Shown here piece by piece: positions 1,901-63,932 of a stretch of DNA of 64,000 nt. The position numbers were made by a program, and so were the translations under genes. The notes below the pieces were generated by a model, which had not been told where the DNA came from, searched no databases, and was given only the letters and a program-made list of their open reading frames with translations. Source of the stretch: a virus (Duplodnaviria > Caudoviricetes); the IMG/VR virus record IMGVR_UViG_3300020161_000678, positions 1,232 through 65,231 of that record; one strand, written 5' to 3'. The stretch's first letter is position 1. Each line of letters opens with the position of its first letter.

Positions 1901-3340
1901 TCAATCACGTCTTTTAATATCCATTTTCTTTCTTACTGGTTTAGACTCTTCAGGTGAATTACTTTTCAGTACGTCCCAATATCTGTTATCGTTCATTAGT
2001 ATGGCATCAACACAGAACTTACCGAATCTGTATGATTGTGATATAAGAACTGATTGCTCTCTTTCTTCATCACGCGCCTTAGCAATAAACAGTCTAGCCA
2101 GCCCAAGTTTCTGTTCAGCAGAAGTTTGGCAGTAAGCAAAAATGTTATCTGCTGTTGCCGCTTTACTGTAATCTTCTGAAAGATGCTTTACTGTAATTAC
2201 TTTTGCATCTTCAGCAAGACGATTAGTTTGAGATGCGGTAACGATTGCAATATTTCTTTCAACTGCAATTCTTCGTAACTCTTTATACACGATACCTGTA
2301 TCAATACGAATATTCGCACCACTTATTTCCATTAAGTCTGCATAGTCTAGCATAAGAAGTTCAGGAGTGTAGTTTAAATATCTTGCCATGCTATCAAGAT
2401 ACACTTCCAAACCTTTAATTGATAAGCCGTTAGTTGGAAATCTTTTTACATAGAACTTCCAACGTTCTTTAAACATTCTTATCTTTGCAGCAATTTCTTC
2501 CCTTGATTCAGAACTGTAATCAATCACTGGTCGTTCCCAGTTTTGAAAGATTACATTGCTAAATCTGTTCATCTCATCACGTTCAAAACGTGCCACCTTA
2601 CCACTGTTCTTTGAGGTACTCATCGAGAACAAGTTCTGAACATAACGTCTACACATCTTTTCTTCAGACATTTCAAGTGAAAGGTGAAGAACTTTATAAC
2701 CTAAACGAACCGCAGTAGATCCTAAATGCACCATACCGAATGTCTTGCCTCTGTTTGGTGGAGCTAGAATAACCATAAGTTCGCCTGGTGCTGGCCCAAA
2801 CTTCATGGCATCGAATGGTGCGATACCTGTTGGTATGGGATCTATTTCGTCAGATAAGAACTTTAAGCTTTTTGATGTATCAGTGAATAAAATACCAGGG
2901 TCGAAAGTGGTGATCTCATCACGTCCAGCATTAGCCAGAATTGATTGTGCGCCATCTAAGTCGCCATTCTTAATTGAGTTAGCTGCCTCAATTACAGAGG
3001 TCTTTAACTTCTGACCTTTAATGAACTTGTTTAGCTGGCTGAGAGTAAACTTCTCATTTACGCTAGTGCTGGTCTCATGCAAGGACATAACTGTTCTTGC
3101 ATAAGTCTTTTCAGTTTTTGGATCATTTAATTGTGGCTCTAACAATTCAACAATGTGTTCTTTACAAGGCGTTTTGTAAGTCTTGTAATAGTCAATAGCT
3201 TGGATAGCTACTGTCTTATACACATCGTTTTCAAACAATCCTGGATCAAGTGAGTTTACTATTATTGGAGCTGATGCTTCTGAGAAGCATAGTAATACTA
3301 AAAGATTTTCTTGTAAAAATCCATCAATTAAATCTGACAT
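1901..3340 (-). CDS. dnaB: DnaB-like replicative helicase
   Basis: GELMVILAPPNRGKT Walker A, LSLEMS, LDYADLM Walker B, ASQTNR, IAKARD. Confidence 0.88.
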   Translation of the reverse strand: MSDLIDGFLQENLLVLLCFSEASAPIIVNSLDPGLFENDVYKTVAIQAIDYYKTYKTPCKEHIVELLEPQLNDPKTEKTYARTVMSLHETSTSVNEKFTLSQLNKFIKGQKLKTSVIEAANSIKNGDLDGAQSILANAGRDEITTFDPGILFTDTSKSLKFLSDEIDPIPTGIAPFDAMKFGPAPGELMVILAPPNRGKTFGMVHLGSTAVRLGYKVLHLSLEMSEEKMCRRYVQNLFSMSTSKNSGKVARFERDEMNRFSNVIFQNWERPVIDYSSESREEIAAKIRMFKERWKFYVKRFPTNGLSIKGLEVYLDSMARYLNYTPELLMLDYADLMEISGANIRIDTGIVYKELRRIAVERNIAIVTASQTNRLAEDAKVITVKHLSEDYSKAATADNIFAYCQTSAEQKLGLARLFIAKARDEEREQSVLISQSYRFGKFCVDAILMNDNRYWDVLKSNSPEESKPVRKKMDIKRRD

Positions 3341-4492: not shown

Positions 4493-5524
4493 CTACTTGC
4501 CCTCAAATATCTTCATGCCAACACCCAGCAGGCACTCATCAATGCTTTCTACCTTGGCGAACTTCAGTAATATATCTTTAGATGAAAGCGACTTCATATT
4601 AGTCTTGATAAAGTCTTTCATCTCTGAATGAGCCTCAGCTTCTGAAACTTTCTCCATACGAAGGTCGTGCAGTTCTATTTCAGCTTCGTCACAGTAGTTC
4701 TTTATCGCTTTCTTAATGTCCTGCCATTCGTGCAACTGGTTTTTATCCAACTGCAATGTGATCTTAACTTGATCGCCTTTACTTAGTTCTTCTAAGTCAG
4801 AAATTACATCTTCAATAGAAGTTAACTCTTTTATAATGTGTGGACGTTTTATGGTTTGCAATGGAATAAATCTAAGTTTATCCCCAACAATAGCAAGCAT
4901 CCGAGGAGTATAATCATCACCAAAAGAAACAGGATGTTGCGTACCAATGTAAATAACTTTTCCGAGTTCTTGAGGAACGTGGATATCGCCGGAAATAATC
5001 TTTGCAGAACATTTATTAAAAAAGTTAACATCTAAGCCTTCCTTCATCTCATGGTAATTTGAAACTTTTGCACCTATTATTGACTGGTGCATAAAGACAT
5101 ATTTAAGTGCTGGGCGTTCAATTATATCTAAATATTCCGCCCAGGTGTGTTCTGGTGTTCTGCTGTGTGGCAGAAACAACATTTCTTGATCTTCAAAGTA
5201 TGTTGGTTTTGAAATCCATTCAATGTTTTCCAACTTATCTAAGAACCTTAAAAACGCCTGATCTTTATCAACAACATAGTCGTGATTTCCTTGCATGATG
5301 GTTATTGGGCAGAACATGTCTCTTATTGAAACAAGTTCCGTGACTAATCGGTTAACAAGCTCTGACTTGTGTTTATCTTTCTTATCGAACAGATCGCCTA
5401 AGATAAACAACTGGTCGTAGTCGTTTTTTGTTAACTCTGCTTTTGCATGTTTGAAAACATTCCAGCGGTAGTTTTCCGCTGGAACATCTGTCAAGTGCAA
5501 ATCTGTTATGATTAGCACATTCAT
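4493..5524 (-). CDS. SbcD/Mre11-like (T4 gp47-like) metallophosphoesterase nuclease
   Basis: ITDLH, LGDLFD, GNHD, FMHQ, GDIHVPQ, YIGT motifs. Confidence 0.88.
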   Translation of the reverse strand: MNVLIITDLHLTDVPAENYRWNVFKHAKAELTKNDYDQLFILGDLFDKKDKHKSELVNRLVTELVSIRDMFCPITIMQGNHDYVVDKDQAFLRFLDKLENIEWISKPTYFEDQEMLFLPHSRTPEHTWAEYLDIIERPALKYVFMHQSIIGAKVSNYHEMKEGLDVNFFNKCSAKIISGDIHVPQELGKVIYIGTQHPVSFGDDYTPRMLAIVGDKLRFIPLQTIKRPHIIKELTSIEDVISDLEELSKGDQVKITLQLDKNQLHEWQDIKKAIKNYCDEAEIELHDLRMEKVSEAEAHSEMKDFIKTNMKSLSSKDILLKFAKVESIDECLLGVGMKIFEGK

Positions 5525-6390: not shown

Positions 6391-6462
6391 TTGCTGCTCC
6401 TGTTTTAAAGAAAATATAACGTCATTGCTACGTTGATATTATATAAAAACGGCAGCAACGTA

Positions 6463-7032
6463 TCAAGATCGCTTTTTAAATACTAGCGGTTTTTTGACTT
6501 GCTCAGTTATACCCGGCAAATTTGAAATTTTTGAATGTTTGAGAAAATTTTGAAACGATAAAATTTTTAATCCCATATGGCATACGTCAATTTCCACATA
6601 CGATTCTAAATTGAATAGTGAGATACCACTTTGATTAAGACCTACTAGGGTTGGTCTATTGTTTTGACGGGCAATGTAAAATGGAAGTTTCTTATACGTT
6701 TCACATTCTTTGAGAAGCTTCGCCCAGTGTGCTGTTATGCCATCTTTTCTGGTACGAAAGATCAGACCATCTACACCTAAGTCTGAGTAGTGTTTGCATT
6801 CTATTACGAATACTTCCGTTAGTGGTAAGCCTGCCTGTTCTACAGCACATATGTCACCTGCTTGTGACATAAAGTTTCTACCAGAATAAGAAAGCATTGT
6901 AGCTCTGCCACCACTGTTTTGAGAGCGGATTAAAACATCCTCACGCTTTCCGCGCGTAAGCCATAGAGACAAGTCCTTTGCAGTCTTGTTCTCAAAGTTG
7001 TTTCCTTTCTGTTTTGCTCCGCCTGATCTCAT
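6463..7032 (-). CDS. PD-(D/E)xK Holliday-junction resolvase-like nuclease
   Basis: KQKGNNFE, GD, FVIECKHY catalytic signature. Confidence 0.75.
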   Translation of the reverse strand: MRSGGAKQKGNNFENKTAKDLSLWLTRGKREDVLIRSQNSGGRATMLSYSGRNFMSQAGDICAVEQAGLPLTEVFVIECKHYSDLGVDGLIFRTRKDGITAHWAKLLKECETYKKLPFYIARQNNRPTLVGLNQSGISLFNLESYVEIDVCHMGLKILSFQNFLKHSKISNLPGITEQVKKPLVFKKRS

Positions 7033-15891: not shown

Positions 15892-16998
15892 TTACCCACT
15901 AATATCTACAGCACCAATAACGTGAAGAAAATTTCCATTGCAACCGCTTAACGCAATGAATCTTTTATCTTTGCTGAACCCAAAGGCAATGTGGCTCATG
16001 GTAGTCAGTACCCGTTTAATCAATTCAGGATTGATTTTAAGATCACCAGTAGGAACAGCCGAGTCCATTTCAATTGAGTCATCGCTGATTCCAGACTTAG
16101 TCGTAGTATCAACCACCAAGTTCTTTCCTCTGCTTTGGAACACTGTGATTTCACGCTCATCCGGTGTGACCAGGATACACGCTCTGTCAATGATGTTTGA
16201 TAACTCATCAGGAATTTCATACCAAGATGCAATCATCTGCTCATACATCTCAGTGGTGCCTTTGTAGTTAGATTTTCTTTCTAACTCAATGAGCCTGGTG
16301 AACACTGTCACATCTGTATCCACTTCAGCAACCAAGAATGAATTATCTTCTTCTTGCGATACCAGGATGCGAATAAAGTTTGATTCTTCAATTTCAGATG
16401 ACTTGGTTTTAGTCAGACGAATCAACTGCTCACAGAACGCACTTGGAATAATCAAGTCGATTGAACATTCTGGCACGTTTGGAGAGTCGTAGCTATACCG
16501 ACTCAAGGAGTATTCGTCCATTGAGTAGAATTCTAAGTGTCTGTCTTTTATAATCAATCTGACACCGTTTCTTTCAGGGTTTGAAAGATCGTGAGACGTA
16601 CTGATTAAACAGTTAGACATACCACTGATAACGTCAAGCGGAATGTTTATTGCTTCGCATTTTGAAAGATCAGGCATTGAGAAAATGAAATCTTCTTTAG
16701 GAAGTGACGGAAGCTTGATTACCGATCTGCCACACTTAAAATTAACTTCATCTGGTTTTTGAATAATCTCGACATCCTTTCTTGGAAGTGATGCCAACAT
16801 CTTCACCAGTAATGTGCCTGGTAATGCACATTCCAAGCCGCTTTCAAACTTGTATTCTATAGCCTGCATATCGTTATACGCCACGACCTTACCGTCACCA
16901 AAACAGAAGTGAGTTAAGATTGGAGCAAACGATTTCTGCATTAAGAAAGGGGTACACTTGCCTACCACACTTTCTATGATGGTCTTATTTATTGTCAT
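15892..16998 (-). CDS. dnaN: DNA polymerase III beta-like sliding clamp
   Basis: 368 aa, PILTHF, LPGTLL..MLASLP, KCGRS.IKLPSLPKEDF, clamp-like three-domain length. Confidence 0.75.
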   Translation of the reverse strand: MTINKTIIESVVGKCTPFLMQKSFAPILTHFCFGDGKVVAYNDMQAIEYKFESGLECALPGTLLVKMLASLPRKDVEIIQKPDEVNFKCGRSVIKLPSLPKEDFIFSMPDLSKCEAINIPLDVISGMSNCLISTSHDLSNPERNGVRLIIKDRHLEFYSMDEYSLSRYSYDSPNVPECSIDLIIPSAFCEQLIRLTKTKSSEIEESNFIRILVSQEEDNSFLVAEVDTDVTVFTRLIELERKSNYKGTTEMYEQMIASWYEIPDELSNIIDRACILVTPDEREITVFQSRGKNLVVDTTTKSGISDDSIEMDSAVPTGDLKINPELIKRVLTTMSHIAFGFSKDKRFIALSGCNGNFLHVIGAVDISG

Positions 16999-18616
16999 GT
17001 AAAGTCTCCGTCATGCTTATTTGCACCTTATAATTGCCGGAACTCAATTGATTTCTTATGGCTTGGAAAGCTGCTTTATGGCAGTCCTCTAAAGTCATAG
17101 TCTTTGGCAATGTTAATTCAAAATCCAACAATTCGATTGTTGGCGTAATTGTTACAGATACAATCTGACTTACATCAGATGCACTGATAACATTGAGATA
17201 CTCATTCAAATCCTCTTCTGTTTCACAAAGATCTGATACCTCAATTTCTTTAGGAAGCTCAACCACTTTTGTGACTTCTTCAACCAGTGCTTCTACTGGA
17301 GGTTGCGGTACACCCATTGGTCGAGGCTTGATAGCGAACTTCTTGCGCTCTAATATTTTACCTACGTCGAATCCCATTTGTCTTTTAGGAGCCTCTTCTC
17401 GGTTTTGTTTAAACTCAACCTCATTCAAGACCGAACTGTTAAGTTCTTCAAGACTGAGGTCTTCTAAGTGTGGTTTATCAGCCAACGAAACTTCATACCT
17501 GCGTCTGGAATCAAGTGTAACCGATATGATTGCTTTACGATGTTCTTCCATAGCATCCATATGTTCCAGATCAAGTAAACCTCTGTTGAAATATTCTTTA
17601 ATAGCCAGGTTTGAGTTTGCATAGGCATCGTACCAGTAGCTCAATAAGAACTTTAGGTCGTTTTCTCGCTTTAAAATGCGATCAACAATCCGTAAAGTAT
17701 TTGGAACAGTGTTGGTGGACGATGCTGCTGTACCTGCGAGATATAAGTTTCCACCATGACCAAAATCGAATGTTCTTTCATAATGTTTCTTTAACTCTTT
17801 TTCAGCATTAATGAAGAACATTGCATTGATGTAATCTCTTTCGTAGTAGCCAGGATTGCCTTCAGCTTGCGCCAAGGTTGCATCAGCTTCAATGGACTGA
17901 AGATAATCTTCCAGCATCCTAATGTCAATGCTTGTCAGCTTGAGTAGGTGTGAAGCGTCTGAGTATCTACCCATAGTCATGGGTACTGCTCTGACCTTTT
18001 GTGGGAAGTAGTTATATCCGGTAACTAGATTGTTTTTAACAATGAAGTCAGGAACTTGAATATGACCTAACCGTGATCCAAATGACCATGTACTGGCATC
18101 ACATGAATAGAATGGATACATTCGCAGCCCTTCTAAAGCATTGGCAGCGAATCCGTGAACTTTTACTCTTGGTGAACCATCAGGGCGTTGAACGTACTCC
18201 TTGAACACTTTTTTGATCCAAGGTTTGAACGCCTCAATATCTTTCCCTTTGTTGATGATACCGACCCCAAAGTAATCATAGTTATCTACAATTTTAGATA
18301 ACCATGAAAAGTCTTCTCCTAAGTGAAATGCTGGGATAGGATGAAGTCCATTTGACTCCATGTACTTCAAAATATCCCAGGTGTACTTAGCATGTCCGAT
18401 AACATCCAAGGTGACATAGAATTCAAAAGAAGGTCCCATCTCATGCAAATAACCGATGTACCGATCCAAAAAGCTTTTAAACAATCTTGATCGTACTACC
18501 CTGAAATCTACACCCTCAGATCCTCTGAAGTTGTTGTTACCTTCTTCCTTAAGAAATTTGTTGTACCAGCTATGCGCTCCTGAATCTAGCGATAACCAAA
18601 ATGACTTACCTTCCAT
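16985..18616 (-). CDS. TGT/DpdA-like guanine transglycosylase-fold protein with C-terminal extension
   Basis: LDSGAHS, YVTLDVIG, PIPAFHLGED, KVHGFA, YPFYSCDASTW; FolE and QueD-like genes nearby. Confidence 0.7.
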   Translation of the reverse strand: MEGKSFWLSLDSGAHSWYNKFLKEEGNNNFRGSEGVDFRVVRSRLFKSFLDRYIGYLHEMGPSFEFYVTLDVIGHAKYTWDILKYMESNGLHPIPAFHLGEDFSWLSKIVDNYDYFGVGIINKGKDIEAFKPWIKKVFKEYVQRPDGSPRVKVHGFAANALEGLRMYPFYSCDASTWSFGSRLGHIQVPDFIVKNNLVTGYNYFPQKVRAVPMTMGRYSDASHLLKLTSIDIRMLEDYLQSIEADATLAQAEGNPGYYERDYINAMFFINAEKELKKHYERTFDFGHGGNLYLAGTAASSTNTVPNTLRIVDRILKRENDLKFLLSYWYDAYANSNLAIKEYFNRGLLDLEHMDAMEEHRKAIISVTLDSRRRYEVSLADKPHLEDLSLEELNSSVLNEVEFKQNREEAPKRQMGFDVGKILERKKFAIKPRPMGVPQPPVEALVEEVTKVVELPKEIEVSDLCETEEDLNEYLNVISASDVSQIVSVTITPTIELLDFELTLPKTMTLEDCHKAAFQAIRNQLSSGNYKVQISMTETLHDNK

Positions 18617-18632
18617 ACCACCTCTTATAATG

Positions 18633-19106
18633 TTATTCTTGCCTAATTGGTACGTCGAGTCTGTTTGAATGGAAAGCGGCTATTGCTGCCAACTTACCAT
18701 GAGCCTCGTCACGTTTCCGTACCTCCGCATCTGTTAGCAACTTTACCTCAGTGTTAACCAGAATGTTTGCTGCCTTTTTCATTTCTTTGGCAAAAGATGA
18801 TTTTAAGTTATCCATAGCAAAGTTAGTTTGCTCTGTAGGCTTAATGATCTGATAGCCAACTCCTCTAACAGATCGTAAGCACTTCTTGTACTCAGTAAGC
18901 ATAGCCCATCTGAATCCCTCCATGTTTTGGAGGAACTCAAAATTGAACTTTTCAAACTCTTTCTTAGTACAAACTTCTGGTTCAACTAATGCAAAGTTCT
19001 TATAGAGCCATTCTTTTGAAATGGTTTCGCCATAATCAAACAAACGATTGGCTCTATAAGCGGCAGAAATGAAGATCTTTTCGAGATCACCTTCTACCTT
19101 GTCCAT
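18633..19106 (-). CDS. Putative winged-helix protein, partner of the Cas7-like gene
   Basis: FDYGETISKEWL...LRSVRGVGYQII wing-like motif followed by a helical C-terminus; starts 1 nt after the Cas7-like stop. Confidence 0.55.
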   Translation of the reverse strand: MDKVEGDLEKIFISAAYRANRLFDYGETISKEWLYKNFALVEPEVCTKKEFEKFNFEFLQNMEGFRWAMLTEYKKCLRSVRGVGYQIIKPTEQTNFAMDNLKSSFAKEMKKAANILVNTEVKLLTDAEVRKRDEAHGKLAAIAAFHSNRLDVPIRQE

Positions 19107-19107
19107 G

Positions 19108-19713
19108 TTAGCTCTCGTCTTTTATACGCATTGATTTAAAGCTTTCGACCTTGAAGCGTCCGAACATGCCACCCTTTTCAGGTCTGAAGCCGCCCAAGCC
19201 AACATACTTACCTGCGTCAACAGCAGATTTAATAAGTTGGGCTTCGTCAATGACTTTCTCATCCCAAATACAGTTAACTGTCAAGCTCCAAGGGTTGAAC
19301 TTGGGACGGTATGCCATAACTCTTGACTTACCGATAACCACACTTCTGCAATCGTAGTATTTACCTTCCCACAATTCATCCTTGGTTAATTTTGCACCGT
19401 ACTCTAATGGTACGAAATCGTCAAGGCAAAGCAGACCACGTTTCAAGTGCATGCCTAGCTTGCTAAGTTTTCCGCCGTTGATGATAGTGGCACGGATGTT
19501 TTGAGTTGGAATGATTACTCCAGCTTCGTCATCCCAGTACAAAGAGCCTTCCCACTGACCTCTGGCAATAGCCAAATGATCTTCGTAGGTTTTCTTTTGT
19601 TTATTGGTGAGAACTTTCTGTCTTACTGCATCTTTGTCAATTGGGTTCGCCAATCGGTCGCATGAGAGTAAAATAGGTGAACTGCCTTTGATGTTTAAGG
19701 TTGTTTGGTACAT
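19108..19713 (-). CDS. Stand-alone Cas7/RAMP-like protein (Vipr-like)
   Basis: N-terminal strand TLNIKGSSPILL, IIPTQNIRATI (RAMP IP..x.IKG-like), RPKFNPWSLTV, C-terminal glycine-rich loop AGKYVGLGGFRPEKGGMFGRFKV. Start moved to MYQTT (GGAG RBS). Confidence 0.75.
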   Translation of the reverse strand: MYQTTLNIKGSSPILLSCDRLANPIDKDAVRQKVLTNKQKKTYEDHLAIARGQWEGSLYWDDEAGVIIPTQNIRATIINGGKLSKLGMHLKRGLLCLDDFVPLEYGAKLTKDELWEGKYYDCRSVVIGKSRVMAYRPKFNPWSLTVNCIWDEKVIDEAQLIKSAVDAGKYVGLGGFRPEKGGMFGRFKVESFKSMRIKDES

Positions 19714-19728
19714 GACTTTCTCCAATTT

Positions 19729-19755
19729 GTGCTATGCCCACCGCGGGCGGCGCAC
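19729..19755 (-). other. GC-rich hairpin between the array and the Cas7-like RBS
   Basis: GTGC-GCC-GCCC-GCGGT-GGGC-ATA-GCAC, anomalously GC-rich; no U-tract, so not called a terminator. Confidence 0.5.
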
Positions 19756-19786
19756 GTTAATTAATAGTCTTACGTTAGCGATTTTA

Positions 19787-21090
19787 AACAATCACTGGAA
19801 ACATGTTTTCAACAAACATGAATCCGCTGATTACTTAATCAACTCTTTACATTACCTTGCTTCGCACCACTCGACATGGACTTGCTTAAATCCGCTGCAT
19901 CTTACAAGACTAAACACAACTTCACACACCTTATAGTGATTTTAAACAATCACTGGAAACATATCTTATCAAGATATGAATCCGCTGATTACTAAATCAA
20001 CTCTTTGCAATACAGCACATCGCAAGGCCGTTCTGTGCTCTACATTACTTCACAACAATCACTGGAAACATATCTTTGGTAAGATATGAATCCGCTGATT
20101 ACTTAATCAACTCTTTACTGTACTCTTACATTAAGCTACTAAGCACAACTTAGCCTAACAGTGCATTACTCAACACCGCTATCAATGTGTGATTATTATA
20201 TAAAAATTCACTATCAAATAACAGATCAAAACTGTTAAATAATTAAATGATTTAAGAATAATCACTGGAAGCATATCTTTGTTAAAATATGAATCCGCTG
20301 ATTACTTAATCAACTCTTTGCACTACTGATCTTTACATCGCTTTACTTCACATTACAAAACTTGGATATACTCTGATCCGCCTCGTTCTAAAACAACCAC
20401 TGGAAACATATTTTTGTTAAAATATGAATCCGCTGATTACTCAATCAACTCTTTACAATACAATTCTCCACCATACTTCATCAGACTTCACATCACTTGA
20501 CATAGCAGCACTGGATATTTTAAACAACCACTGGATTTGGCATCTCTTACGATTACCAAGTCCGCTGATTACTCAATCAACTCTTTGCAGGACAGTACAT
20601 CGCATCACTGAACTCAACTGGACGCTACTTTCGCAGAACAATCGCACTACATTGCTGGGATCTATTTCCCTAAAGTGATCTAAAACAATCACTGGAAACA
20701 TGTTTTCAACAAACATGAATCCGCTGATTACTTACTCAGCTCTTTGCGCTACATTGCAATACAGAAATTCGGAAAGCGGAACCTGGCATGACACTACTAG
20801 GAATCAGTAGGCATTGCTGCGAGTCAGTGATCTTAAATAATCACTGGAAACATATCTTATCAAGATATGAATCCGCTGATTACTTAATCAGCTCTTTACA
20901 ATACATAACATCTCTTCACAGAACCAGACTCTGCATCGCTGCACCTGACTCGGCTAAACATTACTATCTAGTGATTCTAAAACAATCACTGGAAACATGT
21001 TTTCAGCAAACATGAATCCGCTGATTACTAAATCAACTCTTTACTGTACTAAGCATTACTACGCTCCACGATACTCAAGTAAGCTTCATT
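19787..21090 (-). repeat. Nine-unit non-coding array: 62-64 nt conserved repeat alternating with 5-nt-periodic tracts (putative guide RNAs)
   Basis: Repeats at 19787-19848, 19945-20006, 20054-20116, 20257-20319, 20392-20454, 20523-20586, 20684-20745, 20836-20897 and 20981-21042. Consensus AAYAAYCACTGGA-hairpin-RTCCGCTGATTACTHAMTCARCTCTTT. Each is followed on the plus strand by about 9-16 RCHNN pentamers. Confidence 0.95.
20195..20226 (-). promoter_or_regulatory. Internal array promoter (ATCTG-N21-TATAAT) driving units 3 to 1
   Basis: Matches the genome-wide fixed-spacing motif. Confidence 0.7.
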
Positions 21091-21103
21091 AAAATAAAAA
21101 CAT

Positions 21104-21135
21104 ATTATATAAAAAACCACTTCAAGTTAACAGAT
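21104..21135 (-). promoter_or_regulatory. Array leader promoter (ATCTG-N21-TATAAT) driving units 9 to 4
   Basis: Matches the genome-wide fixed-spacing motif; lies just upstream of the first pentamer tract. Confidence 0.7.
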
Positions 21136-21157: not shown

Positions 21158-22066
21158 CTATACCTTATTGCGTCTAACAATGTTATTAAAAATTGATTGA
21201 TGCAGTAAGGCTGGTGATCTTGTAGTACACTTAGCACACATGTCTGGCAAACAACCTGACAAATGTTGCGCTCTAAATTCTTTAACAGCTTTTGAATTGT
21301 TCCAAATCTCTTCCAACGAAGATTCATTTAGATTTCCAAAAATTACTTCTTTTCCAAATGCCATACAGCATGGCACAACATCTCCATCTGAATGAACCGA
21401 CACACTTAACCAAGGATTCAAACATAACTCTTTTGAAGCTTCAACCCTTTGTTGAGTGTAAAGATTAGTTGAACTGTCCTTGATTATTCGTACCTCACAA
21501 TCCCATTTCAAATCATCAACTATTTCTTGCAGTTCCGCTGCTTCTTCCTTGGCATTGTTTTTGACAACTTCGTTATCCATATCAATAACTTGTAAGTCAA
21601 TTTGTACCTTGGATTTACGTTCGGTTTTAGCTTGCATAAGCAGGCTGATGTTATGCTCTAGCTCGACGAATGTTCCGTTAACTCTGATCTTTTCATAGTT
21701 GCGAACTGAGTCAACAGATATGGTTAAATAGTCTAACTCAAGGAGTAAGTCGATATGCTTATGAATCAGCAGACCGTTTGTACTCATGCCAGTTATAACT
21801 TTACCCAAGAATGGTTCAACAATTTTGGATAATTTTTTATTTAACAATGGTTCGCCTGACATCTGGAACTCGATGAAGTATGATCCATCTAAGTCTCTCT
21901 CAGCAATTGTCCTGGCGAGGTCAACACTTAACGCAAAATCATCCCTATGTTTCTCCTCAACAAATCGAGGGCACATAGGGCACTTTAATTGACAGGCAGA
22001 GTGTGCTTCAATTTGGTAAATTGACGGCACTCTCGGGTTGAATATTGGCCCTTCTAAAACTTTCAT
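21158..22066 (-). CDS. Radical SAM / SPASM-domain protein
   Basis: SACQLKCPMC (CxxxCxxC), SGEPLL, STNG; C-terminal CLNPW...GDVVPCC..FGNLNESSLEEIWN..CAKC. Start moved to MKVLEG (GAGG RBS). Confidence 0.85.
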   Translation of the reverse strand: MKVLEGPIFNPRVPSIYQIEAHSACQLKCPMCPRFVEEKHRDDFALSVDLARTIAERDLDGSYFIEFQMSGEPLLNKKLSKIVEPFLGKVITGMSTNGLLIHKHIDLLLELDYLTISVDSVRNYEKIRVNGTFVELEHNISLLMQAKTERKSKVQIDLQVIDMDNEVVKNNAKEEAAELQEIVDDLKWDCEVRIIKDSSTNLYTQQRVEASKELCLNPWLSVSVHSDGDVVPCCMAFGKEVIFGNLNESSLEEIWNNSKAVKEFRAQHLSGCLPDMCAKCTTRSPALLHQSIFNNIVRRNKV

Positions 22067-22195
22067 AAACACCTCGAATTTAAGCGGTTTTAAGCGGCTA
22101 TTTTTCAAGCCGCTATGATGGTATTACTTAAACAATGAAACGGCTTAAACAGCCAGATTCTTGCCAATTATCGCTAGGTTTAGCACTGGCTTTAG

Positions 22196-61479: not shown

Positions 61480-63932
61480 TTGAGGTGTGCTATGGGCGAA
61501 GCGAAGCGGCGTGGAACATTCCAACAACGTCAGGCAGAAGGTATTGCCAAACGGTTGGAATTGATTGAGGTAGCAAAAGAAGTGATTGCTGCAAAAGAAC
61601 GCGAACAAGAGGAAGCATGGAAGCAGATGACTCTTGACGAAAAGAAAGCTCTGATAGAGTTTGAAGCATTGCAGATGATTGCGTTTAACGGAGCATTTGC
61701 CAATGTTAGTCCAGAGCGTATCAAAGAACTAGCACAGGAAACTGTGTAATGGTTGAGCAAGGATATCTTTTAGCATCCGATGATGGTCGGTATGTGCGAA
61801 TCTATCCTAGAGCAGCAGAATTCAAATTGGTGTTCTTACCTAGAGCTGCGTCTAAATTCCAGACGTATCACATGGCTAAGAACATCATGAAGAAGCTTCA
61901 GCCAATGGGTAAAACTCTCAAAATATCGTATTTTAAATTGATGTAACTCTGTTTTCGAGTAGTCGATTTTGTTATAATATCATCATGTTAAGCAATTGAG
62001 CTTGGCAGTCAAAAGTTGATTAGGAGTATGTTTATGATAGATCCGAATGAGTATCTCGTTATTAAAAACATTAAGAACGAAGAGCATATCAATCAAATCA
62101 AAGAACTTTGGAAAGAAGTCTTCGACACTGAAGATATGGAAATCCTTACCATCGAAACCGATACGCTGATTCAAGACTTCATGGACTACGGTTTGTATGA
62201 AGAAAAGGAAGAAATTTGGACAGATGTTAGCATCACAAGTTTCGAGGAATTAGCCAGACCAGTAGAAATGGTTGGTATTAGAACTGTTTACACTCAAATT
62301 GGCGAACGTATCTACACCAATAACGTCATGGTTGTTAAAGATGCCAACGGCTTAGAGTGTATTAAAGCTGAAGATGTTTACTAGGAGCTAAAATGTATAA
62401 GATGGCCTGTGTACTGTCGAGTAAGAAGGGTTTGAGACCATTTGCATCTCACGCATACCTTGTGCCAATAAGAACGGCTGTGATACTAGATATCAACGAG
62501 TGTGTAGCCAGTTCAGAAAGGACATGCACAGACCTTTTATTTACATTTGATGGTACTGAATTTAAGGTGTGGTTAGTGCCGAACAAGAATACCAGATCAA
62601 GAGAACCACGTCTGATATTCTTTGGCACATGCTACACCAAAGGTGTTGATTCAGAACAGTTAGGACGACAAGTTCTGAATCAGATGTTTGATAACGATTA
62701 TGACATAGAATACACGGAGATCAAAGATGCCGTACTATGAGCAATATATGATTGTCCTTGACAGCAAGGCTGAGAAGTATTTAAAAGAATACTTTCTTAA
62801 ATACAATGTAACGCATGTGTTTAAGGGAAAGGTGTTGTTCTTTAGAGATCCAGTTACGTTTGCAGATGTCAGAGATAAACTGCTACCTAAGCTGAACAAC
62901 ACCTTTGATAGGTTTGCTGTTGTAGTACAGGATTTAACACAGACGCAGCTTGCTATCTCCTATTCAATACTTAAATGGGAAAGGATACTGTTCTCAAAAG
63001 CCCATGACATGGGCTCGACGAATTGTAGTCTGTGTGTTCAGTATAAAGAGACAAACAAAGGATGGTGTGTCAGTTGTCCAATCTTTCACAGAACAGGCAA
63101 ACAGTTCTGTGAGAAAACTCCATATGACGCATGGAATGATTACATGAAGATGTGTCACGGCATAAGACGTGATGCCTTTCATGCAAAAGGTCAAGACTTT
63201 AGTGGAGAAATGTTTGTGTTCGACGCAGTATCGGAAAGTCTTGCAAGAGATGAGTTGACGTATTTGCAAGACTTGTTAGAAATTTACAACGGAGATTAGA
63301 GATGAATGTCCATAAAGAAGTAAAACAGTACGTTCCAGTAGTTGATGGAGAATTAAAACTACAAGGATTCGTACAGAATTGCAACAATCCAGAACATAAG
63401 GAACATGAGGTAATAATAACATCGTCGTCAACAGGACCGCTACATGTTCTGCCAGTGATGTTAAGTATCTTCCCAGAAGAGCGAAGATTCGTGGTGGTAT
63501 ATCTACCAACAGCACCTAGCATCATGCAAGCTGCTCCAGATAAGTTTATCATGAAACGTCGATTGCATGAGGATGTACCAACAGACTTAGATCCATACAT
63601 GTTGGCAGAGTATATCATCAATAGCTTTTTTGGTCAGGCAGCCAGGTATATATTAATGACCGAAGAAGAGTTCATTGACATTATGACAATGACTCCGCTA
63701 GAACGTTTGGAACATCTAGTTCCAAACTCATCAGTGGTTCACTAAGATGCGAACCACTCATAAGAGTACTGGAATATGCAACCAACATCGTCCACCAGCT
63801 AATCTTCACTTCTCTGGAGTGAACAAGCGTAAGGAAACAAAGTGGTGTGGATTTGGTTCGATCAGATACTTACCACTTCAGGATGATGACTCTATCATTA
63901 ATTCGTTTAAGGAGCTAGTCAATGACTATTGA
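61480..63932 (+). other. Plus-strand hypothetical proteins
   Basis: ORF track 61480-61749, 61749-61946, 62016-62384, 62393-62740, 62727-63299 (CSLC..CVSCP Cys cluster), 63302-63745, 63747-63932. Confidence 0.5.

What the first reader, a model, noticed from the sequence alone, without database searches (positions are those of the whole stretch)
18633..21135. Non-CRISPR RNA-guided system candidate: lone Cas7/RAMP-like protein, wHTH partner and nine-unit guide-like array (VIPR-like)
Seen: a 201-aa protein with a RAMP-type N-terminal strand and C-terminal glycine-rich loop (GLGGFRPEKGGMFGRF) lies directly downstream, on the same strand, of a 1.3-kb non-coding array with nine conserved repeats and nine different periodic tracts. 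It is coupled to a wHTH-like ORF. No cas1, cas2, cas3, cas5, cas6 or cas8 is present in the window. Established: Cas7/RAMP proteins polymerise along guide RNA with a fixed nucleotide step. Inference: the protein coats array-derived RNAs to recognise nucleic acid, for example repressing competing phages or host defence genes. I recall a recently reported phage class called VIPR (Cas7-related protein with GGY/NN RNAs), but I have not verified that here. If this is the same family, the locus is a divergent variant with WGY motifs, a long structured tail and nine guides.
Basis: partly seen in the sequence, partly recalled or inferred. Interest (0 to 1): 0.96.

Follow-up and report, generated by a model that had tools for sequence, protein, structure and literature searches.

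The report
Phage VIPR locus with WGY guides
This uncultured phage carries a genuine VIPR system, a CRISPR-related RNA-guided DNA silencer first described in 2026: a Cas7-like protein, its partner gene and nine guide RNAs. It is a new example of a published kind, and its guides use A/U-G-Y instead of G-G-Y as the fixed letters.

Summary

On the minus strand, 21134-18633 holds:
- two phage-type promoters;
- nine guide units, each with 9-19 YNNWG pentamers and a 60-62 nt two-hairpin 3' tail;
- a 201-aa Vipr gene;
- a 157-aa vap1-like gene.

**Family membership.** The protein is 35% identical to the experimentally characterised SUSP1 Vipr (E 2e-35). A profile of its relatives hits only "SUSP1 Vipr protein" in the PDB (E 1.8e-54). 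Its model (pLDDT 94) superposes on Csm3/Cas7 at Z 11.7. The partner gene is homologous to SUSP1 vap1 (E 1e-13).

**Handle.** The fixed triplet is WGY, not GGY. The two SUSP1 residues that read the first G (H17, D177) are S and G here. Across 14 loci, H17 with D/E177 goes with GGY, and S/A17 with G177 goes with AGY/WGY.

**Array turnover.** A sister phage (96% identical flanks) has seven units, only four or five of them shared.

**Targets.** None were found in the phage's own record or in capped exact-match scans of public collections.

**Novelty.** VIPR is in print (three bioRxiv preprints, 2026), and a fourth preprint already lists WGT/NN units. This scan has noted VIPR loci in at least 145 other genomes. 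I class it as a new member of a known kind, of moderate interest.

The parts
21104..21134 (-). Promoter P1 of the first sub-array (TCT-N22-TATAAT; -10 box at 21109-21104)
   Evidence: Member of a phage-wide promoter-like family: 13 copies in the window against 0.91 expected. It points into the array. Transcription itself was not tested.
20984..21098 (-). vrRNA unit 1: about 9 YNNWG pentamers (21098-21044) plus tail (21043-20984)
20839..20983 (-). vrRNA unit 2: 14 pentamers (20983-20899, including a 15-nt leader) plus tail (20898-20839)
20687..20838 (-). vrRNA unit 3: 15 pentamers, some degenerate (20838-20747), plus tail (20746-20687)
   Evidence: It is a diverged paralogue of unit R7 of the sister phage.
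20526..20686 (-). vrRNA unit 4: about 19 pentamers with two 1-nt register slips (20686-20588), plus a tail with a fully covaried hairpin 2 (20587-20526)
20395..20525 (-). vrRNA unit 5: 12 pentamers (20525-20456) plus tail (20455-20395)
   Evidence: It is shared with the sister phage except for the last pentamer.
20260..20394 (-). vrRNA unit 6: 13 pentamers (20394-20321) plus tail (20320-20260)
   Evidence: Its NN letters are identical in the sister phage.
20195..20225 (-). Promoter P2 of the second sub-array (TCT-N22-TATAAT)
   Evidence: The flanking 40 nt repeat the sequence at P1 (family D4).
20057..20189 (-). vrRNA unit 7: about 14 pentamers (20189-20118) plus tail (20117-20057)
19948..20056 (-). 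vrRNA unit 8: 9 pentamers (20056-20008) plus tail (20007-19948)
19790..19947 (-). vrRNA unit 9: 17 pentamers, degenerate in the middle (19947-19850), plus tail (19849-19790)
19726..19789 (-). Leader between the array and vipr: a junction hairpin (AGUGAUU/AAUCGCU, which begins in the last tail), a GC-rich hairpin and a Shine-Dalgarno sequence (GGAGA)
   Evidence: Fold. The sequence is kept in L008 and L011.
19108..19713 (-). vipr: a 201-aa Cas7-like RAMP with S17, K33, R136 (thumb) and the G-loop GLGGFRPEKGGMFGRF
   Evidence: 35% identical to SUSP1 Vipr, E 2e-35. PDB profile hit to SUSP1 Vipr, E 1.8e-54. Model pLDDT 94. Csm3 at Z 11.7. PHROG 4652.
18633..19106 (-). vap1-like accessory gene: 157 aa, an N-terminal winged-helix-like domain plus a C-terminal helical hairpin
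   Evidence: 26% identical to SUSP1 vap1, E 1e-13. PHROG 5926. Model pLDDT 86 with the element order H-E-H-H-E-E. Fold matches to wHTH regulators are weak.

Best explanation
The locus is a VIPR (Viral Interference Programmable Repeat) system of the SUSP1 / P. fulva kind (type II-like).

Proposed mechanism:
1. Two phage promoters drive minus-strand transcripts carrying six and three guide units.
2. These are cut into vrRNAs, possibly at the A/U-rich loops of the hairpins that join one unit's tail to the next unit's leader.
3. One Vipr protomer binds each YNNWG pentamer. It buries the W-G-Y triplet through its RRM sheet, thumb and glycine loop, and presents the two variable bases.
4. [quoted passage not shown]
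5. The filament reads double-stranded DNA by the published non-contiguous code (NN paired, every third target base skipped) and blocks transcription. The winged-helix partner Vap1 assists.
6. The most likely targets are rival phages, satellites or other mobile DNA in the same host.

Shown here: the homology, the fold, the repeat code, the tail structure and its RNA strand, the promoter-like motifs, and the turnover of units between sister phages.

Inferred from the SUSP1 work: RNA binding, DNA silencing and the skip rule.

Inferred here: the first handle base has changed from G to A/U because the two residues that read it in SUSP1 (H17, D177) are replaced by S and G.
For: Protein:
- 35% identical to SUSP1 Vipr over 189 aa, E 2e-35.
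- A profile of 31 relatives finds only 36pp_D 'SUSP1 Vipr protein' in the PDB, E 1.8e-54.
- The AlphaFold model has pLDDT 94.
- All top Foldseek hits are Csm3, Cmr4 or type VII Cas7.
- VIA-align gives Z 11.7, 164 residues aligned, rmsd 3.6 to Csm3.
- The SUSP1 functional residues K33, R138 and R179 are conserved, and W178 becomes F (with residue roles from 10.64898/2026.04.26.720927).

Partner: vap1 homology at E 1e-13.

Guides:
- Period-5 signal at z 9.6.
- Y-N-N-W-G composition over 122 pentamers.
- The layout of variable tract then invariant tail matches published vrRNAs and the SUSP1 sequence itself.

Tail:
- Two hairpins with z -3.8 to -5.1 against shuffles.
- 97.9% of cells paired, 3 pairs with compensatory changes, 0 of 500 shuffles as good.
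- U.G/C.G and U.G/U.A alternations fit only the minus-strand RNA.

Promoters: two of the 13 TCT-N22-TATAAT sites head the sub-arrays.

Evolution: the sister phage L008 (Vipr 99%, flanks 96%) has 7 units. Four are shared, and the others are replaced or rearranged.

Handle and residue correlation over 14 loci:
- H17 + D/E177 goes with G at 76-100% in 7 loci.
- N17 + D177 goes with a mixed base in 2 loci.
- S/A17 + G177 goes with A at 81-100%, or A/T, in 5 loci.

Self-targeting: no self-target in the record, as published for other VIPRs.
Against: - No target was found for any guide, so the skip rule and the 'rival mobile element' role are untested for this clade.
- Expression, processing and RNA binding are not shown.
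- In SUSP1, GGY>AGY was among handle mutations reported to abolish silencing. A WGY handle therefore works only if the protein has co-adapted, which is inferred, not shown.
- The residue-handle correlation rests on few independent evolutionary events (clades, not 14 independent points).
- Substitutions between shared units of the two sister phages are only mildly enriched in NN positions (16/140 against 14/210).
- Several tracts contain degenerate pentamers and 1-nt register slips.
Confidence: 0.9

Rival explanations
1. It is a true VIPR locus but is used for the phage's own programme: timing of phage genes, or silencing of host genes such as defence systems, rather than against rival mobile elements.
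For: No rival-element target was found. Earlier notes of this scan report VIPR guides that seem aimed at host restriction or CRISPR genes in other genomes (unchecked). The array sits among replication and DNA-modification genes and uses the phage's own promoter type.
Against: No guide matches the phage's own 65-kb record above shuffled controls. The host is unknown, so host targets could not be searched. Published natural targets are mostly satellites and prophages.
Confidence: 0.2
2. The locus is a decaying or partly inactive VIPR: the relaxed W position, the degenerate pentamers and the register slips reflect loss of constraint.
For: Position 4 is split A 47 / T 40 / G 9. Relatives have A at 81-100%. 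Units 3, 4, 7 and 9 contain irregular pentamers or plus/minus 1 slips.
Against: - Both ORFs are intact and conserved (Vipr 99% and 91% in L008 and L011).
- G at position 5 (88%) and Y at position 1 (90%) are kept.
- The tails keep their pairing through compensatory changes.
- Both promoter motifs are intact.
- The same A/T split is seen in the sister phage.
- The VIPR paper notes that internal degeneracy is frequent in vrRNAs.
Confidence: 0.07
3. It is not an RNA-guided system. On this reading the 1.3-kb region is a DNA-level repeat element (iterons, an origin, or binding sites for the winged-helix protein), and the RAMP-like protein acts on something else.
For: A winged-helix-like protein is encoded next to repeated DNA.
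Against: Wobble pairs and compensatory changes in the tail fit an RNA of one strand only. The period-5 code with a fixed triplet is the published vrRNA signature. Both proteins are homologous to the proteins of a system shown biochemically to bind such RNAs.
Confidence: 0.02

Closest known systems
Type II VIPR of Escherichia phage SUSP1 (Vipr, vap1, four vrRNAs; bioRxiv 10.64898/2026.04.26.720920, .720927, 10.64898/2026.10.15.759431; PDB 36pp)
   Same: - The gene pair vipr-vap1 is in the same order, and both proteins are homologous (E 2e-35 and 1e-13).
- The fold is Cas7-like, with a thumb arginine and a glycine loop.
- The guides are tandem pentamers with two variable bases, followed by an invariant structured 3' tail.
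- The locus is phage-borne, lies near DNA ligase and DNA polymerase genes, and has no cas genes.
   Different: - The handle is WGY, not GGY, and the G1-reading residues H17 and D177 are S and G.
- The G-loop has a 4-residue insert (EKGG), shared with the Pseudomonas clade.
- There are nine guides, all upstream of vipr, in two promoter-headed sub-arrays. SUSP1 has one upstream and three downstream.
- The tail is a 60-nt pair of hairpins unrelated in sequence to the SUSP1 pseudoknot tail.
- The host and the targets are unknown.
VIPR of Pseudomonas prophages (P. fulva clade of the paper; here represented by phage LESphi2, L002)
   Same: This is the closest named relative of the protein (45% identical, E 3e-51). 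It shares the EKGG insert in the G-loop, has its guides upstream of vipr, and has a vap gene downstream.
   Different: LESphi2 keeps H17 and D177 and uses GGC (G at 92%). It is a temperate phage with vipr next to cI/cro.
Uncultured AGY-handle Vipr clade (metagenome loci L003, L004, L007; proteins P0002-P0039, 50-62% identical)
   Same: It has the same G-loop (GGFRPEKGG), S or A at position 17, a vap homologue, and arrays of up to five guides next to vipr. The first handle base is not G (A at 81-100%).
   Different: These relatives use almost only A at that position, where this phage lineage uses A and U about equally. Their tails differ in sequence, and their arrays are shorter.
Non-canonical VIPR arrays listed in bioRxiv 10.64898/2026.10.21.760802 (21 clusters; examples GAC/NN, CAC/NN, WGT/NN, TGH/NN)
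   Same: They have a period-5 array with a trinucleotide degenerate at one position (WGT/NN) next to a Vipr-like fold.
   Different: I could not tell whether this locus belongs to one of those clusters, because figures and cluster members are not held. That paper gives no residue-level explanation of the changed handle.
Cas7 family backbone subunits of type III and type VII CRISPR-Cas (Csm3, Cmr4)
   Same: The fold is shared over the whole protein (Z 11.7, 164 of 201 residues aligned). Both are expected to bind RNA with one protomer per fixed step.
   Different: - Sequence identity is only 9-14%, and the Pfam RAMP model gives no hit.
- No cas partners or CRISPR repeats are present.
- The step is 5 nt instead of 6 nt.
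- The published target of VIPR is dsDNA read by a gapped code, not contiguous RNA.

Membership tests
VIPR system (Vipr + vrRNA) | Vipr protein homologous to experimentally validated Vipr | tested here: met
   BLASTP against SUSP1 Vipr: 35% identity, E 2e-35. A profile search of the PDB finds only 'SUSP1 Vipr protein', E 1.8e-54.
VIPR system (Vipr + vrRNA) | Minimal RAMP fold: single RRM core, thumb hairpin, glycine-rich loop | tested here: met
   Model pLDDT 94. Csm3/Cas7 matches at Z 11.7 over the full length. The beta-hairpin 120-139 carries R136, equivalent to SUSP1 R138. The G-loop is GLGGFRPEKGGMFGRF.
VIPR system (Vipr + vrRNA) | Guide genes made of at least 4 tandem pentamers with a conserved trinucleotide and hypervariable NN | tested here: met
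   Nine tracts of 9-19 pentamers. Lag-5 z is 9.6. Composition is Y 90% / N / N / W 87% / G 88%.
VIPR system (Vipr + vrRNA) | Canonical GGY trinucleotide | tested here: not met
   The first base is A 47%, T 40%, G 9%. The family description allows 'a related consensus' (YNNNG), and WGT/NN units are in print. This is therefore a variant feature, not an exclusion.
VIPR system (Vipr + vrRNA) | Invariant, structured 3' tail after each repeat tract | tested here: met
   The 60-62 nt tail has 89% mean column identity. Two hairpins are supported by compensatory changes and strand-specific wobble pairs.
VIPR system (Vipr + vrRNA) | Adjacent vap accessory gene (type II: predicted DNA-binding vap1) | tested here: met
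   The ORF 2 nt downstream is homologous to SUSP1 vap1, E 1e-13. It has winged-helix topology, but the fold matches are weak.
VIPR system (Vipr + vrRNA) | Stands outside CRISPR-Cas loci (no cas genes, no CRISPR array); mostly viral | tested here: met
   It is a virus record. Cas1, Cas2 and Pfam RAMPs are absent from the 65-kb record, and PADLOC and NCBIfam give no hits. Limits: the record is about 44% complete, and cas3, cas5, cas6 and cas8 were not searched singly.
VIPR system (Vipr + vrRNA) | vrRNAs are expressed and co-purify with Vipr | not testable with these tools
   This needs small-RNA sequencing and a pull-down. Only promoter-like motifs and RNA-type covariation are available.
VIPR system (Vipr + vrRNA) | Natural targets that match the NN code with one skipped base (at least 80% NN match) | tested here: inconclusive
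   - No self-target was found.
- There was no exact seed match in six viral-contig scans (searches gave none; one search gave one match, with no extension).
- Two genome-contig scans gave none.
- Two metagenome scans gave one 78% match in a high-GC soil contig, judged chance.
- The scans needed exact 18-22-base seeds, so diverged targets would be missed. The host is unknown.
CRISPR-Cas type III/VII Cas7 (Csm3/Cmr4) | Sequence membership in the RAMP family and association with cas genes and CRISPR repeats | tested here: not met
   There is no Pfam hit at E up to 1, and PF03787 is absent from the record. No Cas1 or Cas2 is present. The repeats are 60-nt structured tails separated by period-5 tracts, not CRISPR repeats and spacers. 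Only the fold is shared.

The most novel reading that the evidence does not exclude
The S17/G177 Vipr clade, and this phage lineage in particular, is a natural specificity variant. Its protein accepts A or U, and not G, at the first handle position. Its guides would then be orthogonal to GGY-type Viprs and immune to hijack by GGY-type solo guides of rivals. On this reading, two residues (position 17 on the RRM sheet, position 177 in the G-loop) set the handle code, and swapping them would re-key a VIPR system.
Probability: 0.4. Interest if true: 0.55.

Novelty: new member of a known kind. Interest (0 to 1): 0.35.

Why it matters
VIPR is a months-old class, so each well-dissected natural locus helps to define what is fixed and what is free in it. 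This one offers four things:

1. **A handle-code hypothesis.** The handle base and the two protein residues shown by cryo-EM to read it in SUSP1 change together across clades. This gives a testable two-residue hypothesis for the handle code, and possibly orthogonal VIPR pairs for multiplexed silencing.
2. **An unusually large array.** Nine guides are driven by two copies of the phage's own promoter type. Junction hairpins suggest how units may be separated.
3. **Direct evidence of guide turnover.** Two phages that are 96% identical elsewhere differ in their guide sets.
4. **A new phage lineage.** VIPR now reaches an uncultured phage only distantly related to known ones (DNA polymerase 31% identical to Vibrio phages) that also carries a DpdA-like DNA-modification gene next door.

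None of this changes the picture of what VIPR is.

Tried and rejected
**Database searches**
- Near-identity DNA search of the locus in the phage collection found no match.
- Rfam gave only a sub-threshold chance hit, so no ribozyme or known RNA lies between units.
- Pfam, NCBIfam and PADLOC gave nothing for either protein.
- The search for related loci with the single protein in IMG/VR found no relative.
- A scan of IMG/VR for the tail motif gave 98 single, unrelated hits and no further array. This tail is so far confined to this phage lineage (window, L008, L011-L013).
- The genome search 'relatives' is not available for a virus record, so no host-centred search was possible.

**Target search by the NNx rule**
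- The phage's own record shows nothing above shuffled guides.
- All 118 fetched loci, including the vipr/vap genes of relatives, show nothing above shuffles except the seeded L010.
- Exact-seed scans of the three public collections gave two isolated hits:
  - L116 shows no extension (1 of 8 flanking NN letters).
  - L010 reaches 28/36 NN, with skip bases on the wobble positions of a 43-aa ORF. The seed is expected about once by chance in that collection (my estimate, assuming the collection holds about 1 Tb), the contig is high-GC soil DNA, and the score is below the published 80% cut-off.
  - I treat both as chance.

**Other checks**
- Enrichment of substitutions in NN positions between shared guides of the sister phages is only a weak trend.
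- VIA-align of Vap against all PDB representatives mostly matched the C-terminal helical hairpin. It gave no decisive winged-helix match (Z 6.6 to a MAGE/NSE1 winged helix).
- The tRNA-like look of actinophage VIPR tails is not called as tRNA by ARAGORN.

**Readings rejected**
- A phage mini-CRISPR array is rejected: the repeats are 60-nt structured tails, the 'spacers' have period 5, and there is no cas1 or cas2.
- An iteron or origin is rejected: the pairing pattern is RNA-specific.
Full report
**What is there**

All features lie on the minus strand. Reading 5' to 3':
- a promoter-like site at 21134-21104;
- six guide units (21098-20260);
- a second promoter-like site at 20225-20195;
- three more units (20189-19790);
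- a 64-nt leader with a GC-rich hairpin and a Shine-Dalgarno sequence;
- a 201-aa ORF (19713-19108);
- 2 nt later, a 157-aa ORF (19106-18633).

The neighbours are a radical SAM/SPASM gene upstream and a DpdA-like gene, a clamp-like gene and a family A DNA polymerase downstream.

The window is an IMG/VR virus record of 65 kb that CheckV rates about 44% complete. Its polymerase is only 31% identical to those of Vibrio and Edwardsiella phages, so the phage is uncultured and its host is unknown.

**Check of the observation**

The anchor GTAATCAGCGGA occurs nine times, each inside a conserved 60-62 nt block. The nine intervening tracts differ from one another but share a 5-nt period:
- G recurs at lags 5, 10 and 15 with z = 9.6, 8.4 and 7.3 against shuffles, and is depleted at lags 1, 4, 6 and 9.
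- A register-tolerant parse gives 122 pentamers with Y 90%, N, N, W 87% (A 47, T 40, G 9, C 4), G 88%.

Cas1, Cas2 and the Pfam RAMP model find nothing in the record.

**What it is**

VIPR is real and published. A Vipr RAMP, a vap gene and vrRNAs made of 9-16 YNNGG repeats plus an invariant structured 3' tail silence dsDNA targets. The NN bases pair and every third target base is skipped (10.64898/2026.04.26.720920; structures in 10.64898/2026.04.26.720927; biology in 10.64898/2026.10.15.759431).

The window protein:
- is 35% identical to the SUSP1 Vipr (E 2e-35). I located that protein in the SUSP1 genome, flanked by the published one-upstream, three-downstream NNGGT tracts.
- A profile of 31 relatives hits a single PDB sequence, 'SUSP1 Vipr protein', at E 1.8e-54.
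- The AlphaFold model (pLDDT 94, pTM 0.87) matches only Cas7-family subunits: Foldseek E about 1e-5, and VIA-align Z 11.7 with 164 of 201 residues aligned to Csm3.

The downstream ORF:
- is homologous to SUSP1 vap1 (26% identity, E 1e-13).
- Its model (pLDDT 86) has the H-E-H-H-E-E order of a winged helix, followed by a long helical hairpin.
- Its fold matches to GntR- and OmpR-type DNA-binding domains are weak (E 0.06-0.9; Z 6.6). 'wHTH-like' is therefore plausible, not proven.

**The guide RNAs**

Each unit has the published layout, a variable repeat tract followed by an invariant tail. The tail folds into two hairpins:
- P1: GUUGAUU/AAUCAGC.
- P2: GGA, an internal loop, then a 7-8 bp stem.
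- Folding energies lie 3.8-5.1 sd below shuffles.

In 14 tails from this phage and its sister, 97.9% of cells pair and three P2 pairs show compensatory double changes. Unit 4 has replaced the whole inner stem. No shuffle of 500 does as well, and slid registers drop to 24-61% pairing. U.G to C.G and U.G to U.A alternations fit only the minus-strand RNA. This sets the direction of transcription independently of the genes.

The 3' end of most tails (AGUGAUU) can also pair with AAUCACU at the start of the next unit, across an A/U-rich loop. I suggest this junction hairpin as the place where units are separated. That is inference.

The two sub-arrays are each headed by a TCT-N22-TATAAT site. This motif occurs 13 times in the window against 0.9 expected, always in the local gene direction.

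**The changed handle**

In SUSP1:
- the first G of GGY is read by H17 and D177;
- the second G is read by R138 and W178;
- the pyrimidine sits in a pocket that includes R179.

GGY>AGY was among handle mutations reported to abolish silencing. In the window protein, K33, R138 and R179 are conserved and W178 is F, but H17 is S and D177 is G.

I collected 13 further loci and measured their handles:

| Residues 17 / 177 | Loci | First handle base |
|---|---|---|
| H + D or E | SUSP1, LESphi2, Medea1, MakoManhole, prophiBWHA-1, two metagenome loci (7) | G 76-100% |
| N + D | L006 and Vibrio phage 1.266.O (2) | L006: G 58, A 32. Vibrio phage 1.266.O: A 42, C 22, G 20, T 15 |
| S or A + G | this phage, its sister, L003, L004, L007 (5) | A 81-100%; A and T about equally in this lineage |

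The pattern fits the structure-based expectation. It reflects perhaps two or three evolutionary events, so it is a hypothesis, not a statistic. It is also not a new observation that handles vary. The first VIPR paper mentions YNNNG repeats, and a later preprint lists WGT/NN among 21 non-canonical clusters (10.64898/2026.10.21.760802).

**Evolution**

A 116-kb metagenome contig (L008) carries the same phage: Vipr 99%, flanks 96% identical. Its array has seven units:
- Four correspond to window units 4-7, with a few substitutions and one pentamer lost.
- One is a diverged copy of unit 3 in another position.
- Unit 1 keeps its first three pentamers but has six new ones.
- Window units 2, 8 and 9 are absent, and one unit is unique to L008.

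A more distant relative (L011, Vipr 91%, Vap 76%) has the same tail, and its contig breaks inside the array. Guides are thus gained, lost and rewritten faster than the surrounding genome. Point substitutions in shared units are only weakly biased to NN.

**Targets**

- Under the one-skip rule, no guide matches the phage's own record better than guides with shuffled NN order. This agrees with the lack of self-targeting reported for other VIPRs.
- The public collections can only be scanned for exact patterns, so I used seeds of 9-11 NN (18-22 fixed bases).
  - Six scans of IMG/VR, two of genome contigs and two of metagenomes gave two isolated hits.
  - One does not extend.
  - The other reaches 78% NN in a 1-kb high-GC soil contig and is most simply chance.
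- No guide matches vipr or vap of any relative fetched.

What the system acts on therefore remains unknown. The 'rival mobile element' role is carried over from SUSP1 and the Pseudomonas clade.

**Verdict**

The finding is real and correctly interpreted. It belongs to a published class that this scan has already met many times: 177 notes in at least 145 genomes. Its distinguishing features are:
- the WGY handle with matching changes in the G1-reading residues;
- a nine-guide, two-promoter array entirely upstream of vipr;
- a private two-hairpin tail;
- visible array turnover between sister phages.

I class it as a new member of a known kind, interest 0.35. The residue-handle hypothesis is the part worth a bench test.

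Noticed in passing
window 16985-18616 (-) and 21158-22108 (-): The VIPR locus is bracketed by a DpdA-like gene (PHROG 887 queuine tRNA-ribosyltransferase, E 1e-30) and a radical SAM/SPASM gene. This suggests that the phage modifies its own DNA with a 7-deazaguanine derivative. Whether modified self-DNA is relevant to VIPR self/non-self discrimination is open.
   Followed up: partly
window, 13 sites (for example 6438-6468, 20195-20225, 21104-21134, 61948-61978): There is a phage-wide promoter-like motif TCT-N22-TATAAT: 13 copies against 0.9 expected, all in the local gene direction. The upstream box is unlike TTGACA-N17.
   Followed up: yes
window ~19730-19757 (-); also L008 ~4960-4990 and L011 ~80-110: A GC-rich hairpin (GUGC..GCCC-GCGGU-GGGC..GCAC) lies between the last guide and the vipr start codon in an otherwise AT-rich region. 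It is conserved in both related phages. It could be a processing stop, a stabiliser of the vipr mRNA 5' end, or a regulator.
   Followed up: partly
L015 (Gordonia phage MakoManhole) ~2985-3025 and ~3100-3145; L117 (Mycobacterium prophage prophiBWHA-1) ~1375-1415: The vrRNA tails of these actinophage VIPR loci contain a T-arm-like hairpin (GGTTCGAnTCC). This suggests a tRNA-like 3' cap, possibly processed by tRNA enzymes. ARAGORN calls no tRNA there.
   Followed up: partly
L118 (Vibrio phage 1.266.O) 1335-1472 and 2130-2310: This cultured Vibrio phage has a VIPR locus whose pentamers are NNNGC. The first handle base is free (A 42, C 22, G 20, T 15), with N at position 17 and D at 177.
   Followed up: partly
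L010 93-146 (soil metagenome contig Ga0207641_10597726): This is a sub-threshold match (28 of 36 NN letters) to guide R2 of the sister phage. The skipped bases fall on the wobble positions of a 43-aa ORF. It is probably chance, but it is the best external match found.
   Followed up: yes
L011 123-728: The 91%-identical Vipr of a related phage has C instead of G in the G-loop (GLCGFRPEK). LESphi2 and Medea1 also have C at that place, so this G-loop position varies between G and C.
   Followed up: no
whole record (G000) and L008: The 65-kb record is rated 44% complete, and the sister contig is 116 kb. The phage genome is therefore probably well over 100 kb, and statements about absent genes hold only for the part seen.
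   Followed up: no
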